This document shows positions 6,589 through 55,564 of a stretch of 64,000 nucleotides of DNA, piece by piece. The DNA is taken from assembly GCF_036507355.1 (NCBI RefSeq), contig NZ_AP027877.1; one strand, 5' to 3'. Positions within the stretch are counted from its first letter, which is position 1. Each line of letters opens with the position of its first letter. The translations under genes were made by a program, and so were the position numbers. The DNA is from Escherichia coli (GTDB lineage Bacteria > Pseudomonadota > Gammaproteobacteria > Enterobacterales > Enterobacteriaceae). The notes beneath the pieces were generated by a model. The model saw only the letters and a list, made by a program, of their open reading frames with translations. It searched no databases and was not told the DNA's origin.

Positions 6589-6602
6589 TCTGATCTAACT
6601 AA

Positions 6603-6628
6603 AAAGGCCGCTCTGCGGCCTTTTTTCT
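6603..6628 (+). terminator. Rho-independent terminator after ihfA
   Basis: Hairpin aggccgc-tct-gcggcct followed by ttttttc. Confidence 0.8.
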
Positions 6629-10557: not shown

Positions 10558-12033
<1,476 letters not shown>

Positions 12034-12036
12034 AGG

Positions 12037-12228
12037 CTACTTGGTCAACAGCAGCTTGCCAGCCTGAGTTTTACGGAGCAGATATTCTTGCCCGTCATGA
12101 TCGATAATCAGTTTGCCATCCGGACCTAACAGTGTCTGGCTGGAAATTCGCCGAATAGGCTGCGGGGAAGCGGTCTTGTGATTGGCATCCGTTTCAGGCG
12201 TGAGTTTTCTGCTATCCGTATAACGCAT
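12037..12228 (-). CDS. ydiE: HemP-like small protein
   Basis: 63-aa [27 protein letters not shown]...; track ORF extends 9 codons further upstream. Confidence 0.8.
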
Positions 12229-12236
12229 AAAAATTA

Positions 12237-12275
12237 ATAATAATTGATATAACAATGATTCTTATTATCAATATT
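12237..12275 (-). promoter_or_regulatory. Fur-box-like AT-rich hexamer array upstream of ydiE
   Basis: Minus strand reads GATAATAAGAATCATTGTTATATCAATTATTATT, i.e. GATAAT/ATTATC-type repeats. Confidence 0.45.
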
Positions 12276-12330
12276 ATGGCTGACCAGAGCAAGCAGTAAT
12301 GTGTTGAGAAGACAACAAGTTGCGCAGAAA

Positions 12331-12354
12331 TGCCCATTCCGTCAGGAATGGGCA
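12331..12354 (-). terminator. Hairpin immediately downstream of aroH (terminator-like, weak U tract)
   Basis: Perfect inverted repeat tgcccattcc-gtca-ggaatgggca abutting the aroH stop. Confidence 0.5.
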
Positions 12355-12359
12355 CGCAT

Positions 12360-13406
12360 TCAGAAGCGGGTATCTACCGCAGAGGCGAGTTTTTCGACCA
12401 GGCGTTCGGTATCTTCCCAGCCCAGACACGGGTCGGTAATGGATTGACCGTAAGTGAGCGGCTGACCGCCGACGATTTTTTGCGTTCCTTCGCGCAGGAA
12501 ACTTTCCGCCATAATTCCAGCAATCGCCGTAGAGCCATTGCGGATTTGCTGACAAATATCCTCACAAACTTCTAACTGGCGACGGTGCTGCTTCTGGCAG
12601 TTACCGTGGCTGAAATCCACCACCAGATGTTCAGGTAAATCAAACTCGTGCAGCGTATCGCAGGCTGCGGCGATATCATCGGCATGATAATTCGGTTTTT
12701 TGCCGCCACGCATAATAATGTGGCCATACGGGTTGCCGCTGGTCTGATAGATGGTCATCTGACCATTTTTGTCTGGCGAGAGGAACATATGGCTGGCGCG
12801 GGCTGCGCGGATAGCATCCACAGCAATCCGCGTGTTGCCATCGGTACCATTTTTAAAACCTACCGGACAGGAGAGTGCCGAAGCCATTTCGCGGTGGATC
12901 TGACTTTCGGTAGTACGTGCGCCAATCGCGCCCCAACTGATTAAATCAGCAATAAACTGACCGGTCACCATATCGAGGAACTCGGTCGCGGTTGGGACGC
13001 CCAGCTCATTTACCTGTAAAAGTAATTTGCGCGCCAGTTCCAGACCGTGATTTACCCGATAGCTGCCGTTTAAATCTGGATCGGAGATTAGTCCTTTCCA
13101 GCCGACAACAGTTCGTGGTTTTTCAAAATAGGTGCGCATTACGATTTCCAGCCGTGACTGGTACTGGTTGCGCAGCGACTGCAGACGGGTGGCGTACTCC
13201 ATTGCAGCGGTGAGATCGTGGATCGAGCAGGGGCCAATAATGACCAACAGTCGCTTATCTTCACCATTGAGTATTTTTTCAATTCTGCGGCGGGAGTCGG
13301 TGACATGGGTGGCGACGCCAGGCGTTACGGGATACCGTAGCGCGAGTTCGGCGGGCGTTACCAGGCTCTCAATACGCGCAGTACGGAGTTCGTCAGTTCT
13401 GTTCAT
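12360..13406 (-). CDS. aroH: DAHP synthase, tryptophan-sensitive isozyme
   Basis: 348-aa MNRTDELRTARIESLVTPAELALRYPVT...; track ORF extends 41 codons upstream. Confidence 0.93.
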   Translation of the reverse strand: MNRTDELRTARIESLVTPAELALRYPVTPGVATHVTDSRRRIEKILNGEDKRLLVIIGPCSIHDLTAAMEYATRLQSLRNQYQSRLEIVMRTYFEKPRTVVGWKGLISDPDLNGSYRVNHGLELARKLLLQVNELGVPTATEFLDMVTGQFIADLISWGAIGARTTESQIHREMASALSCPVGFKNGTDGNTRIAVDAIRAARASHMFLSPDKNGQMTIYQTSGNPYGHIIMRGGKKPNYHADDIAAACDTLHEFDLPEHLVVDFSHGNCQKQHRRQLEVCEDICQQIRNGSTAIAGIMAESFLREGTQKIVGGQPLTYGQSITDPCLGWEDTERLVEKLASAVDTRF

Positions 13407-29924: not shown

Positions 29925-30029
29925 AAAAAAAGCCCATCGTGGGAGATGGGCAAAGACTACACACAGCAATTCGTTGTTTCACTCAGGGGATTTCCATGCT
30001 TATAAATCAATATGTTGATTTATAACCGT
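29925..30029 (-). ncRNA. rprA: Small RNA RprA (positive regulator of rpoS translation)
   Basis: Minus strand ACGGTTATAAATCAACATATTGATTTATAAGCATGGAAATCCCC...CCCACGATGGGCTTTTTTTT recognised as RprA, with -10 TACTAT at 30036-30041 and an intrinsic terminator. Confidence 0.85.
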
Positions 30030-30078: not shown

Positions 30079-30214
30079 TTAGTTTAAAAACTGTAAAGAA
30101 TTTGCGACAGGTACTACCAGCTGAATGGCGGTACGCAGGAAAATATGGGGAAGAGCAAGCAAATATCAATTAGCGGTGGTTAACAATCAGGCGGCAGAGC
30201 CGCCTGATGAGAAA

Positions 30215-35839: not shown

Positions 35840-36015
35840 CAATGAGATACCTAATTCTTAGCGTGCCTGTTAACCCACACATCAGGGTCTATGCTTATTA
35901 AAAGCAGGCAAAAAGCATGTTTTACGGTAAAGCCCCTGCGTTTGCTGGGTTGAACTGATAATCATTATCACTAACATGCTGTTATACGCTGAAAGCGATG
36001 AAGTGAGGTAAATCG

Positions 36016-36384
36016 ATGGACATGCATTCAGGAACCTTTAATCCACAGGATTTCGTCTGGCAGGGCTTAACGCTGACACCCGCAGCGGCGATACACATCC
36101 GCGAGCTGGTGGCAAAACAGCCAGGTATGGTCGGCGTGCGCTTAGGTGTGAAGCAAACGGGCTGCGCGGGCTTTGGCTATGTGCTCGACAGTGTTAGCGA
36201 GCCGGACAAAGACGATCTGCTGTTTGAACACGACGGCGCGAAGCTGTTTGTCCCGCTGCAAGCGATGCCGTTTATTGATGGCACGGAAGTCGATTTCGTT
36301 CGTGAAGGACTTAATCAGATATTCAAATTTCACAACCCTAAAGCCCAGAATGAATGTGGCTGTGGCGAAAGCTTTGGGGTATAG
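36016..36384 (+). CDS. sufA: Fe-S cluster A-type carrier
   Basis: 122 aa with C-terminal CGCGESF motif. Confidence 0.93.
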
Positions 36385-42695: not shown

Positions 42696-42729
42696 CAAAA
42701 AAAATGGCGCACAATGTGCGCCATTTTTC
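42696..42729. terminator. Bidirectional intrinsic terminator between ldtE and lpp
   Basis: A8-atggcgcaca-a-tgtgcgccat-T5; A-run and T-run flank a perfect hairpin. Confidence 0.8.
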
Positions 42730-45470: not shown

Positions 45471-45710
45471 CCATTCAGGATGAGGCGGTAAGCTTCATCC
45501 TGATATTCTTGCTTCAGTTGCGGTCCAGTTAATCATTCTAAATAACAACTGCTGAAATTATACGAATTTCGGTATGTATTTTAATTTATAGCGATAATGT
45601 TATTTTTATTTTCTGCAATGAACGTCACAAATAATTGTCGCTTAAGTTAAATTTATTTCAAATGATAATAAATATCAGTTCACTTATAATTTCTTGCTTT
45701 GTAATTTTAA

Positions 45711-45925: not shown

Positions 45926-48675
<2,750 letters not shown>

Positions 48676-49389: not shown

Positions 49390-50058
49390 ATGTCCTTCAC
49401 TCGACGCAAATTTGTTCTGGGGATGGGAACAGTAATCTTTTTTACTGGTTCTGCGTCTTCTCTGTTAGCGAACACGAGGCAAGAAAAGGAAGTTCGGTAT
49501 GCCATGATTCATGACGAGTCACGGTGCAATGGCTGTAATATTTGCGCCCGCGCATGCCGTAAAACTAACCACGTCCCCGCTCAGGGAAGCCGTTTATCGA
49601 TAGCACACATTCCAGTCACCGATAACGACAACGAAACGCAGTATCACTTTTTTCGCCAGTCATGTCAGCACTGCGAAGATGCTCCGTGCATCGACGTATG
49701 CCCGACAGGGGCGTCGTGGCGTGATGAGCAGGGGATCGTGCGGGTAGAAAAATCGCAGTGCATCGGCTGCAGTTATTGCATTGGCGCTTGTCCGTACCAG
49801 GTTCGCTACCTTAACCCTGTCACTAAAGTGGCAGATAAATGTGATTTCTGCGCTGAGTCCCGACTGGCAAAAGGCTTTCCGCCCATTTGCGTCAGCGCCT
49901 GCCCGGAACACGCATTGATCTTTGGTCGCGAAGATAGCCCAGAAATTCAGGCGTGGTTGCAGGATAATAAATACTATCAATATCAGCTACCTGGTGCCGG
50001 GAAACCGCATCTGTATCGCCGGTTCGGTCAACATTTGATTAAAAAGGAAAATGTATGA
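49390..50058 (+). CDS. ydhX: Tat-exported 4Fe-4S ferredoxin-like protein
   Basis: 222 aa from MSFTRRKFVLGMGT... (twin-arginine-like signal) with four Cys clusters; track ORF extends 17 codons upstream. Confidence 0.85.
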   Translation: MSFTRRKFVLGMGTVIFFTGSASSLLANTRQEKEVRYAMIHDESRCNGCNICARACRKTNHVPAQGSRLSIAHIPVTDNDNETQYHFFRQSCQHCEDAPCIDVCPTGASWRDEQGIVRVEKSQCIGCSYCIGACPYQVRYLNPVTKVADKCDFCAESRLAKGFPPICVSACPEHALIFGREDSPEIQAWLQDNKYYQYQLPGAGKPHLYRRFGQHLIKKENV

Positions 50059-50840
50059 ACCCGTCGCAACATGCTGAACAGTTTCAGAGCCAGTTAGCGA
50101 ACTATGTGCCACAGTTCACTCCCGAATTTTGGCCGGTGTGGTTGATCATTGCCGGAGTATTGCTGGTTGGGATGTGGTTGGTGCTGGGGCTGCACGCCTT
50201 GCTTCGTGCTCGTGGCGTGAAGAAATCAGCCACCGATCATGGTGAGAAGATTTATCTTTACAGCAAAGCGGTCAGATTATGGCACTGGTCGAATGCGTTA
50301 CTCTTTGTATTGTTGCTGGCAAGTGGGCTGATAAATCACTTTGCGATGGTGGGCGCAACTGCGGTTAAAAGTCTGGTTGCGGTGCATGAAGTTTGCGGAT
50401 TTTTGTTACTGGCATGCTGGCTCGGCTTTGTGCTGATCAATGCCGTTGGGGATAATGGTCACCACTATCGCATTCGTCGTCAGGGGTGGCTGGAACGAGC
50501 GGCAAAACAAACGCGATTTTATTTGTTTGGCATTATGCAGGGGGAAGAACATCCTTTCCCGGCAACAACCCAGTCTAAATTTAATCCCTTACAGCAGGTC
50601 GCCTATGTTGGTGTCATGTATGGATTGCTGCCGTTGTTACTATTGACGGGGCTGCTGTGTCTCTATCCGCAAGCCGTGGGAGATGTGTTTCCTGGCGTTA
50701 GATACTGGTTATTGCAGGCGCATTTTGCTCTGGCATTTATAAGCCTCTTTTTTATCTTCGGTCATCTTTATCTTTGCACCACGGGGCGTACGCCACACGA
50801 AACCTTTAAAAGCATGGTCGATGGCTATCACCGGCACTAA
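50055..50840 (+). CDS. ydhU: Membrane cytochrome b-like subunit (PhsC-like)
   Basis: 261-aa polytopic membrane protein; 4-bp overlap with ydhX. Confidence 0.85.
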   Translation: MNPSQHAEQFQSQLANYVPQFTPEFWPVWLIIAGVLLVGMWLVLGLHALLRARGVKKSATDHGEKIYLYSKAVRLWHWSNALLFVLLLASGLINHFAMVGATAVKSLVAVHEVCGFLLLACWLGFVLINAVGDNGHHYRIRRQGWLERAAKQTRFYLFGIMQGEEHPFPATTQSKFNPLQQVAYVGVMYGLLPLLLLTGLLCLYPQAVGDVFPGVRYWLLQAHFALAFISLFFIFGHLYLCTTGRTPHETFKSMVDGYHRH

Positions 50841-55538: not shown

Positions 55539-55564
55539 AGGCGCAACCCGCGAAGGTTGCGCCT
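55539..55564. terminator. Hairpin terminator between convergent ydhQ and mdtK
   Basis: aggcgcaacc-cgcgaa-ggttgcgcct. Confidence 0.65.

What the first reader, a model, noticed from the sequence alone, without database searches (positions are those of the whole stretch)
12229..12359. Fur-box-like array upstream of hemP-like ydiE
The ydiE upstream region carries a tandem AT-rich hexamer array resembling overlapping Fur boxes, consistent with iron control of a HemP-family small protein. It sits next to a perfect 10-bp hairpin downstream of aroH that lacks a clear U tract.
Basis: partly seen in the sequence, partly recalled or inferred. Interest (0 to 1): 0.3.

Follow-up and report, generated by a model that had tools for sequence, protein, structure and literature searches.

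The report
Known Fur box upstream of ydiE
The AT-rich repeat in front of the small E. coli gene ydiE (hemP family) is a real binding site for the iron-sensing repressor Fur, but published genome-wide experiments already show this, so the finding is correct and ordinary.

Summary
The window is E. coli chromosome. Positions 12229-12359 are exactly the 131-bp aroH-ydiE intergenic region, identical to K-12 MG1655 except for one base.

Both observations are real:
- **Fur box.** Two overlapping Fur-box 19-mers lie at 12251-12275 on the minus strand (15/19 and 14/19 to consensus). The 7-1-7 core is at 12256-12270. Only 3 such sites occur in 64 kb against 0.24 expected; one other is upstream of sufA (a known Fur target), the third ~250 bp upstream of ydhY.
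- **Hairpin.** A perfect 10-bp hairpin (12331-12354) starts 5 nt after the aroH stop codon and is followed by UUUCU.

ydiE is one of 36 core Fur-regulon genes in nine E. coli strains. The ChIP-exo peak lies 20-32 bp upstream of the ATG, which is window 12248-12260. ydiE rises about 7-fold in MG1655 delta-fur and is also Fur-repressed in Salmonella.

My 13-sequence alignment across Escherichia, Citrobacter and Salmonella shows TTGATAATAAnAATCATTGT as the most conserved block of the intergenic region (19 of 20 columns invariant). A conserved TTGC -35 element sits exactly 17 bp upstream of GATAAT.

The likely mechanism is Fe2+-Fur occluding the ydiE promoter. The hairpin is most likely the aroH terminator.

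Novelty: already known. Interest is low.

The parts
   Evidence: ORF and sequence reading. Identical in length to MG1655 NC_000913.3 1789482-1789612, with one substitution.
12251..12275 (-). Fur operator: two overlapping 19-bp Fur boxes offset by 6 bp (12269..12251 at 15/19; 12275..12257 at 14/19), with the 7-1-7 core TGATAATaAgaATCA at 12270..12256
   Evidence: Consensus scans. Overlaps the published ChIP-exo peak, equivalent to window 12248-12260. Positions 12252-12271 are 19/20 invariant in 13 Escherichia, Citrobacter and Salmonella sequences.
12264..12269 (-). Inferred -10 hexamer GATAAT of the ydiE promoter, lying inside the Fur box
   Evidence: 5/6 match to TATAAT. Invariant in all 13 sequences, with a fixed 17-bp spacing to the conserved TTGC block. 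No transcription start data were examined.
12287..12292 (-). Inferred -35 hexamer TTGCTC (3/6 to TTGACA)
   Evidence: CTTG at 12293-12290 is invariant and the next base is nearly invariant across three genera, while the flanks diverge. No indels separate it from GATAAT. It falls below the threshold of the promoter scan.
12233..12244 (-). Second conserved AT-rich block ATTATTATTAAT, in hexamer phase with the Fur box. Either further Fur hexamers or an A/U-rich 5' leader without a Shine-Dalgarno sequence.
   Evidence: Mean identity 0.94 and 7 of 12 columns invariant. ATTATT is 5/6 to ATTATC. Its function is not resolved.
12331..12354 (-). Perfect 10-bp stem with a 4-nt loop, starting 5 nt after the aroH stop codon. 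Probable aroH intrinsic terminator or 3'-end stabiliser.
   Evidence: Fold at -17.8 kcal/mol. The stem is kept in 13 sequences from three genera while the loop varies freely, and one pair changes UA to UG to CG. Perfect stems of 10 bp or more are enriched over chance.
12323..12330 (-). Weak U tract UUUCUGCG following the hairpin
   Evidence: 4 T in 8, below the scan threshold of 5. By my count from alignment A3, the Salmonella arizonae and Citrobacter R56 tails reach 5 of 8.
12037..12228 (-). ydiE (hemP-family protein, 63 aa), the regulated gene
   Evidence: Pfam PF10636 at E = 2e-15. Protein identical to K-12 YdiE. Crystal structure 4YNX is named 'Uncharacterized protein YdiE'.
12360..13406 (-). 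aroH (Trp-sensitive DAHP synthase), the upstream gene whose transcript the hairpin ends
   Evidence: ORF list; RefSeq annotation of identical loci.

Best explanation
Positions 12251-12275 form a Fur operator that overlaps the ydiE promoter.

When iron is plentiful, Fe2+-Fur dimers bind the two overlapping 19-bp boxes, and possibly spread onto the in-phase ATTATT ATTAAT hexamers downstream. The bound Fur covers the -10 hexamer GATAAT and the predicted transcription start near 12257. RNA polymerase is excluded and ydiE stays almost silent. When iron is scarce, or in a fur mutant, the operator is vacated and ydiE is transcribed from its own promoter, TTGCTC-17 bp-GATAAT.

The hairpin at 12331-12354 belongs to the upstream transcription unit. 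It ends or stabilises the aroH mRNA, so ydiE is insulated from TrpR-controlled aroH transcription.

What is shown: the sequence match, cross-genus conservation, in vivo Fur occupancy, and derepression in delta-fur (the last two from the literature).

What is inferred: the exact promoter hexamers and start site, the number of Fur dimers, and terminator activity of the hairpin.
For: - Sequence match: 15/19 and 14/19 Fur boxes and a 7-1-7 core with 2 mismatches. The window has 3 such sites against 0.24 expected; the other two sit upstream of sufA and ydhY, and Gao et al. list suf genes and ydhY in their Fur iModulons.
- In vivo binding: ChIP-exo peak P53 in MG1655 at 1787605-1787617, labelled intergenic with target ydiE. 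In W3110 the peak is at 1791295-1791307, and hemP starts at 1791327 in NC_007779.1. The peak is therefore -32 to -20 from the ATG, which is window 12260-12248.
- Expression: ydiE rises by log2 +2.87 in MG1655 delta-fur (about 10 to about 86 normalised counts), while aroH falls slightly (282 to 205). In W3110 ydiE goes from 0 to about 32. ydiE is in the 36-gene core regulon.
- Other species: Salmonella ydiE is 7.4-fold up in delta-fur and is induced in iron-restricting egg white. In a UPEC study ydiE appears in an up-regulated gene table (4.2) alongside suf and enterobactin-related genes.
- Phylogenetic footprint: 12252-12271 is the best-conserved 20-column block of the intergenic region (19/20 invariant). 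It is more conserved than the flanking coding sequence (mean identity 0.98 against 0.67-0.83). The CTTGC block sits at a fixed 17-bp spacing.
- Within E. coli: in five divergent or reference strains compared with the window, polymorphisms fall in the promoter spacer, downstream of the box and in the hairpin arm, but never in the box or the -35 element.
- No Rfam family matches the region.
Against: - The -35 hexamer is weak (3/6) and the promoter scan did not call this promoter.
- I examined no transcription start data. A second geometry, TTGATA-16 bp-TATCAA, would put the box over the -35 element instead.
- There is no Shine-Dalgarno sequence before the ATG.
- In BL21, ydiE was reported as down-regulated in delta-fur (log2 -1.1) although it is Fur-bound.
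- The published expression data do not separate promoter occlusion from a block to read-through from aroH.
Confidence: 0.9

Rival explanations
1. Fur acts here mainly as a roadblock rather than by promoter occlusion. The aroH hairpin, with its poor U tract, leaks. Read-through transcripts from the aroH promoter are stopped by Fur bound at 12251-12275, and ydiE induction in low iron comes from relief of that block.
For: The hairpin tail has only 4 U in 8 and fails the terminator scan. The Fur box lies 56 bp downstream of the hairpin on the same strand. In MG1655, aroH is expressed about 25-fold above ydiE in wild type and only about 2.4-fold above it in delta-fur, which read-through would also explain.
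Against: A -35/-10 pair at a fixed 17-bp spacing is conserved across three genera, and the -10 lies inside the box. This is the usual repression geometry. The hairpin is itself under purifying selection, and by my count the tails in some Salmonella and Citrobacter sequences are richer in U. To my knowledge (not checked here), Fur roadblocking of elongating polymerase is not an established mechanism.
Confidence: 0.07
2. The promoter geometry differs. The ydiE promoter is TTGATA (12271-12266), a 16-bp spacer, then TATCAA (12249-12244; TATAAA in phylogroup B2-like strains). Fur would then cover the -35 element and spacer, and the mRNA would have a leader of only about 9 nt.
For: TTGATA is 5/6 to the -35 consensus and is invariant. 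The C-to-A polymorphism at 12246 in JJ1886-like strains creates TATAAA. A very short leader would fit the absence of a Shine-Dalgarno sequence.
Against: The candidate -10 is not conserved outside Escherichia: it reads TAAATT or GAGTTT in Citrobacter and Salmonella. It also lacks the key final T. The invariant CTTGC block further upstream would be left without an explanation.
Confidence: 0.15
3. The AT-rich block is only generic promoter or curved DNA, or a site for another AT-binding protein such as H-NS, IHF or Fis. On this view the resemblance to a Fur box is coincidental.
For: AT-rich intergenic DNA often scores moderately against the AT-rich Fur consensus. One 15/19 hit in the window (50451) lies inside an ORF and is probably chance.
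Against: ChIP-exo shows Fur on exactly this spot in nine strains, together with fur-dependent expression. The conserved bases are those of the Fur consensus, TGATAAT...ATCA.
Confidence: 0.02

Closest known systems
Fur-repressed promoters of the E. coli core Fur regulon (for example sufA in this same window, fepA-entD, fhuA, cirA)
   Same: A 19-bp Fur-box match with a second box offset by 6 bp, overlapping the -10 region, bound by Fur in vivo and derepressed in delta-fur. The perfect 7-1-7 box 41-65 bp upstream of sufA (35951-35975) serves as an internal comparison.
   Different: Nothing essential differs. The match is slightly weaker (15/19 against 16/19 for sufA). The regulated gene is a 63-aa protein of unknown function, not a transporter or biosynthetic operon.
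Yersinia enterocolitica hemP, first gene of the Fur-regulated hemPRSTUV haemin-uptake operon (Stojiljkovic and Hantke 1992, as cited in PMC3212961 and PMC5428311)
   Same: The same protein family (PF10636) with a Fur box directly upstream.
   Different: In E. coli, Citrobacter and Salmonella, ydiE is a stand-alone gene between aroH and selO with no haem-transport genes next to it. The Yersinia locus itself was not examined here.
Salmonella enterica ydiE (STM1346)
   Same: An orthologous gene in the same aroH-ydiE position. In the two Salmonella subspecies aligned here the box core TTGATAATAATAATCATTGT is identical, and published work shows Fur repression in S. Typhimurium.
   Different: The spacer between hairpin and promoter is longer. 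The start codon lies three codons downstream of the Escherichia one.
Rho-independent terminators of E. coli
   Same: A GC-rich perfect stem with a tetraloop, placed 5 nt after a stop codon and conserved in relatives.
   Different: The U tract is interrupted (UUUCU) and the site fails the consensus scan by one T. A 3' end at this position was not verified.

Membership tests
Fur box / Fur operator | Match to the 19-bp consensus GATAATGATAATCATTATC, or the 7-1-7 form TGATAATNATTATCA, beyond chance | tested here: met
   15/19 and 14/19 for the two boxes; 2 mismatches in the 7-1-7 form. The window has 3 sites against 0.24 expected by shuffling.
Fur box / Fur operator | Position overlapping the core promoter of the regulated gene | tested here: inconclusive
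   The box contains a conserved GATAAT located 17 bp from a conserved TTGC block. The promoter is inferred, and no start-site data were examined.
Fur box / Fur operator | Fur occupancy in vivo or in vitro | not testable with these tools
   Taken from the literature. ChIP-exo peaks lie at -32 to -20 from the ydiE ATG in MG1655 and W3110, and ydiE is a core regulon member in nine strains (PMC10164565).
Fur box / Fur operator | Fur- and iron-dependent expression of the downstream gene | not testable with these tools
   Taken from the literature. Delta-fur log2 fold change is +2.2 to +8.1 in 8 of 9 strains and -1.1 in BL21. Salmonella shows 7.4-fold derepression and induction by iron restriction.
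Fur box / Fur operator | Conservation of the site upstream of orthologues | tested here: met
   19 of 20 columns are invariant in 13 sequences from Escherichia, Citrobacter and Salmonella, and this is the most conserved block of the intergenic region.
HemP family (Pfam PF10636) | Profile match above the curated threshold | tested here: met
   E = 2e-15, 56.8 bits against a 25-bit cut-off, covering residues 27-63 and the full 37-position profile.
HemP family (Pfam PF10636) | Association with a haem-uptake operon, as for the founding Yersinia hemP | tested here: not met
   The neighbours are aroH and selO in all loci whose annotation was inspected, with no haem-transport genes adjacent. This bears on function, not on sequence-family membership.
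Intrinsic (Rho-independent) terminator | Stable GC-rich stem-loop directly downstream of a stop codon | tested here: met
   A 10-bp perfect stem at -17.8 kcal/mol, starting 5 nt after the aroH TGA. It is conserved with one compensatory pair.
Intrinsic (Rho-independent) terminator | U tract immediately after the stem | tested here: not met
   The tail UUUCUGCG has 4 T in 8, and the scan requires at least 5.
Intrinsic (Rho-independent) terminator | Mapped RNA 3' end at the site | not tested

The most novel reading that the evidence does not exclude
Fur control of ydiE may reach beyond ydiE itself. The ydiE and selO stop codons are only 3 bp apart and convergent, with no room for a terminator. 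Iron-starvation-induced ydiE transcription must therefore run antisense into selO, and the pair is listed as a candidate excludon. This could link iron status to expression of the SelO AMPylase. A related possibility is that the weak aroH terminator plus a Fur roadblock couples TrpR-controlled and Fur-controlled transcription.
Probability: 0.1. Interest if true: 0.35.

Novelty: already known. Interest (0 to 1): 0.08.

Why it matters
The finding adds little that is new. ydiE is an established core member of the E. coli and Salmonella Fur regulon, and the site found by eye coincides with the published ChIP-exo peak.

The result is useful in three ways:
- It validates the first-stage reader: both the observation and the interpretation are correct.
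- It gives a base-resolution description of the operator, which has a 20-bp core that is almost invariant across three genera.
- It points to what remains open. The function of the orphan HemP-family protein YdiE in bacteria without a linked haem-uptake operon is unknown. So are the true ydiE start site, how an mRNA without a Shine-Dalgarno sequence is translated, and whether the convergent ydiE-selO overlap has regulatory consequences.

Tried and rejected
- **Promoter/terminator scan.** It found no minus-strand promoter and no terminator. One plus-strand (antisense) promoter-like hit, ATAACA-17-TATTAT at 12249-12277, is at chance level (1 found, 0.9 expected) and was dismissed.
- **Rfam search of 11900-12600 at E up to 1.** Nothing was found, so no known RNA element explains the hairpin or the leader.
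- **Direct use of the MG1655 ChIP-exo coordinates on NC_000913.3.** This failed because 1787605 falls inside ppsR there. The paper evidently uses older MG1655 coordinates. I resolved this with the W3110 peak and the W3110 RefSeq annotation, which give the same -32 to -20 position. Applying a +1976 offset to MG1655 gives that same position; this offset is my recollection of the U00096.2-to-U00096.3 coordinate difference, not a measured value.
- **Literature searches for an aroH terminator or a ydiE transcription start.** They found only the excludon list.
- **A cis explanation for the BL21 anomaly (ydiE down in delta-fur).** BL21(DE3) differs from K-12 by one base, T to A at window-equivalent 12273, in the upstream hexamer and promoter spacer. 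This is unlikely to invert regulation and I did not pursue it further.
- **The genome-contig scan.** It returned only 13 loci, all Escherichia, Citrobacter or Salmonella apart from one contaminant contig labelled Streptomyces (L005). More distant HemP loci such as Yersinia were not sampled.

Full report
**Identity of the region**

The window is E. coli chromosome. A 601-bp piece around the finding matches 5,422 of 5,426 complete E. coli genomes at 95-99.8% identity, and the annotated neighbours are aroH, hemP and selO. The window runs in the opposite orientation to K-12:
- selO (ydiU) is at 10597-12033 (+).
- ydiE/hemP is at 12228..12037 (-).
- aroH is at 13406..12360 (-).

The flagged interval 12229-12359 is exactly the 131-bp aroH-ydiE intergenic region. 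It has no indels relative to MG1655 and differs at one base, 12301. The ydiE product is identical to K-12 YdiE. It matches Pfam PF10636 (hemP) at E = 2e-15, and a crystal structure exists under the name 'Uncharacterized protein YdiE' (4YNX).

**Checking the Fur-box observation**

The promoter-proximal 53 bp (12229-12281) are 85% A+T, against 50% for the window.

I scanned all 64 kb on both strands with the classical 19-bp Fur consensus, GATAATGATAATCATTATC. This consensus and the 7-1-7 form are established knowledge. The motif reported by Gao et al. is TGAnAATnATTcTCA.
- GATAATAAGAATCATTGTT at 12269..12251 scores 15/19.
- The overlapping site shifted by 6 bp (12275..12257) scores 14/19.
- Only the sufA site scores higher (16/19), and one intragenic site ties at 15/19.

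The 7-1-7 pattern with up to 2 mismatches hits three places, against 0.24 +/- 0.53 expected from shuffles:
- the present site, 12256-12270;
- a perfect match at 35956-35970, which lies 46-60 bp upstream of sufA (36016-36384);
- 45663-45677, about 250 bp upstream of ydhY.

In the paper of Gao et al., sufA carries a Fur ChIP-exo peak and sufB is in the core-regulon table, while ydhY and ydhV are listed in the Fur-2 iModulon. The simple scan therefore behaves specifically in this window.

Read in phase, the array is AATATT GATAAT AAGAAT C ATTGTT ATATCA ATTATT ATTAAT. The description 'tandem AT-rich hexamer array resembling overlapping Fur boxes' is accurate.

**Checking the hairpin observation**

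TGCCCATTCC-GTCA-GGAATGGGCA at 12331-12354 is a perfect 10-bp stem with a 4-nt loop. On the aroH strand it starts 5 nt after the TGA.
- The centroid structure is -17.8 kcal/mol.
- Perfect stems of 10 bp or more occur at 7 distinct loci in the window, against 0.65 expected in random sequence.
- The tail is UUUCUGCG. With 4 T in 8 it misses the terminator scan's threshold by one.

Both halves of the observation are confirmed.

**Published evidence**

Gao et al. 2023 (PMC10164565) ran Fur ChIP-exo and delta-fur RNA-seq in nine E. coli strains. ydiE is one of the 36 core-regulon genes.

*Binding position*
- The supplement lists MG1655 peak P53 at 1787605-1787617 (intergenic, target ydiE). The W3110 peak P67 is at 1791295-1791307.
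- In W3110 RefSeq, hemP starts at 1791327. The peak therefore spans -32 to -20 relative to the ATG, which is window 12260-12248. It lies on the 3' half of the 19-mer and overlaps the 7-1-7 core.
- The MG1655 numbers are in older coordinates, because in NC_000913.3 they fall inside ppsR. With the +1976 offset between the U00096.2 and U00096.3 records (recalled, not measured here) they give the same -32 to -20 position relative to ydiE at 1789613.

*Expression*
- In MG1655, ydiE rises from about 10 to about 86 normalised counts in delta-fur (log2 +2.87), while aroH falls slightly.
- In W3110, ydiE goes from 0 to about 32.
- Eight of the nine strains show +2.2 to +8.1 log2. BL21 shows -1.1.

*Other organisms and conditions*
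- In Salmonella Typhimurium, ydiE is 7.4-fold up in delta-fur, with a predicted box and earlier binding evidence cited (PMC3212961).
- It is induced in iron-restricting egg white (PMC5428311). That paper also cites Panina et al. 2001 and Bjarnason et al. 2003.
- A UPEC study lists ydiE (4.2) in an up-regulated gene table next to suf and enterobactin-related genes.

**Comparative evidence produced here**

A scan of one genome per species with YdiE returned 13 loci. They are Escherichia species and clades, six Citrobacter, two Salmonella subspecies, and one 417-bp contaminant contig. I aligned the aroH-ydiE spacer of 12 of them with the window.
- TTGATAATAAnAATCATTGT (12271-12252) is invariant at 19 of 20 columns. 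It is the best 20-column block in the intergenic region, with mean identity 0.98.
- For comparison, mean identity is 0.61 for the stretch between hairpin and promoter, 0.64 for the promoter spacer, and 0.67-0.83 for the flanking coding ends.
- Upstream, CTTG (12293-12290) is invariant and the following C is nearly so.
- No sequence has an indel between this block and GATAAT, so TTGCnn-17 bp-GATAAT is a conserved geometry.
- A second block, ATTATTATTAAT (12244-12233), is also well conserved (0.94).

Within E. coli the spacer varies from 90% to 100% identity. Five divergent or reference strains were compared with the window. Substitutions fall in the hairpin 3' arm (A to G, giving a U-G pair), in the -35/-10 spacer and just downstream of the box. 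None falls in the box or the -35 block.

The hairpin stem is preserved in all 13 sequences while the loop varies freely. One pair goes UA to UG to CG. By my count from that alignment, the tails in Salmonella arizonae and Citrobacter R56 reach 5 T in 8. No Rfam family matches the region.

**Mechanism**

The best-supported model is classical Fur repression. Fe2+-Fur binds the overlapping boxes, which contain the -10 hexamer GATAAT and the predicted start near 12257, and so excludes RNA polymerase. Loss of Fe2+ or of Fur frees the promoter.
- Shown: the site, its conservation, in vivo occupancy and fur-dependent expression (the last two from the literature).
- Inferred: the promoter hexamers, the start site, how many Fur dimers bind, and whether they spread onto the downstream block.

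The hairpin is most simply the aroH terminator or 3' stabiliser. The roughly 25-fold drop in expression from aroH to ydiE in wild-type MG1655 is consistent with this.

**Rival readings**

- **Fur as roadblock.** Fur might block read-through from a leaky aroH terminator. The published counts cannot exclude this, but the conserved promoter geometry argues against it as the main route.
- **Alternative promoter.** TTGATA-16-TATCAA would place the box over the -35 element. Its -10 is not conserved outside Escherichia.
- **Coincidental AT-rich DNA.** The ChIP-exo data contradict this.

**Comparison with known systems, and novelty**

The site meets the sequence, conservation and (through the literature) binding and regulation criteria of a Fur operator. 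YdiE meets the Pfam criterion for HemP, but it lacks the haem-uptake operon context of the founding Yersinia hemP.

Everything essential in the finding is already published, so the novelty class is 'already known' and interest is low.

Open questions remain:
- the function of YdiE;
- translation of an mRNA without a Shine-Dalgarno sequence;
- the BL21 anomaly;
- whether Fur-induced ydiE transcription interferes with the convergent selO gene. The stop codons are 3 bp apart, and the pair is listed among excludon candidates in PMC12288877.

Noticed in passing
window 35951-35975, upstream of sufA (36016-36384, +): A perfect 7-1-7 Fur box, TGATAATCATTATCA, with a 16/19 19-mer, lies 41-65 bp upstream of sufA. 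It is the known suf Fur site and served as a positive control for the scans.
   Followed up: partly
window 45663-45677: TGATAATAAATATCA (1 mismatch to the 7-1-7 form) sits in a long AT-rich region about 250 bp upstream of ydhY (45926-46552, +). ydhY and ydhV are listed in the Fur-2 iModulon in PMC10164565.
   Followed up: partly
window 12031-12039: The ydiE stop (12037-12039, minus strand) and the selO stop (12031-12033, plus strand) are convergent and only 3 bp apart, so the 3' ends of the transcripts must overlap. ydiE-selO is listed as a candidate excludon in PMC12288877. selO (ydiU) rose by log2 1.6 in W3110 delta-fur and 0.3 in MG1655.
   Followed up: partly
L023 (NZ_CM169499.1, E. coli strain EC02) 2500-2680: A rare natural deletion removes the promoter, the Fur box and roughly the first 26 codons of ydiE. 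The remnant is annotated as a 51-aa hemP starting inside the aroH hairpin region. About 15 of 5,422 genomes cover less than 80% of the intergenic query.
   Followed up: partly
L024 (BL21(DE3), NC_012971.2) 3985; window-equivalent 12273: BL21(DE3) differs from K-12 in the whole spacer plus ydiE by a single base. CATAATATTGATAAT becomes CATAAAATTGATAAT, in the upstream Fur hexamer and promoter spacer. BL21 is the one strain in which ydiE was reported as down-regulated in delta-fur. A causal link is untested.
   Followed up: partly
L005 (NZ_POTZ01001146.1, 'Streptomyces sp. NTH33', 417 bp, coverage 0.8): A tiny low-coverage contig in a Streptomyces assembly encodes a protein 100% identical to E. 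coli YdiE. It is almost certainly E. coli contamination of that assembly.
   Followed up: no
window 12217-12228 and alignment A2 columns 197-215: The ydiE start codon is not fixed. Escherichia uses ATG CGT TAT ACG GAT (MRYTD). Citrobacter and Salmonella have an ATG three codons downstream (ATG GAT), where Escherichia has ACG, and S. arizonae lacks the upstream ATG. No Shine-Dalgarno sequence precedes the E. coli ATG; the leader is purely A/U-rich.
   Followed up: partly
window 50451-50469: The palindromic sequence GATAATGGTCACCACTATC scores 15/19 to the Fur consensus on both strands but lies inside a 261-aa ORF (50055-50840, +). It is probably a chance match.
   Followed up: no
window 6601-6625, 42701-42727, 30000-30025, 55539-55564, 2457-2481, 30186-30208: These are the other perfect hairpins of 10 bp or more in the window. 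Several have A and T runs on both sides, for example AAAAAGGCCG...CGGCCTTTTT, and are likely bidirectional terminators.
   Followed up: no
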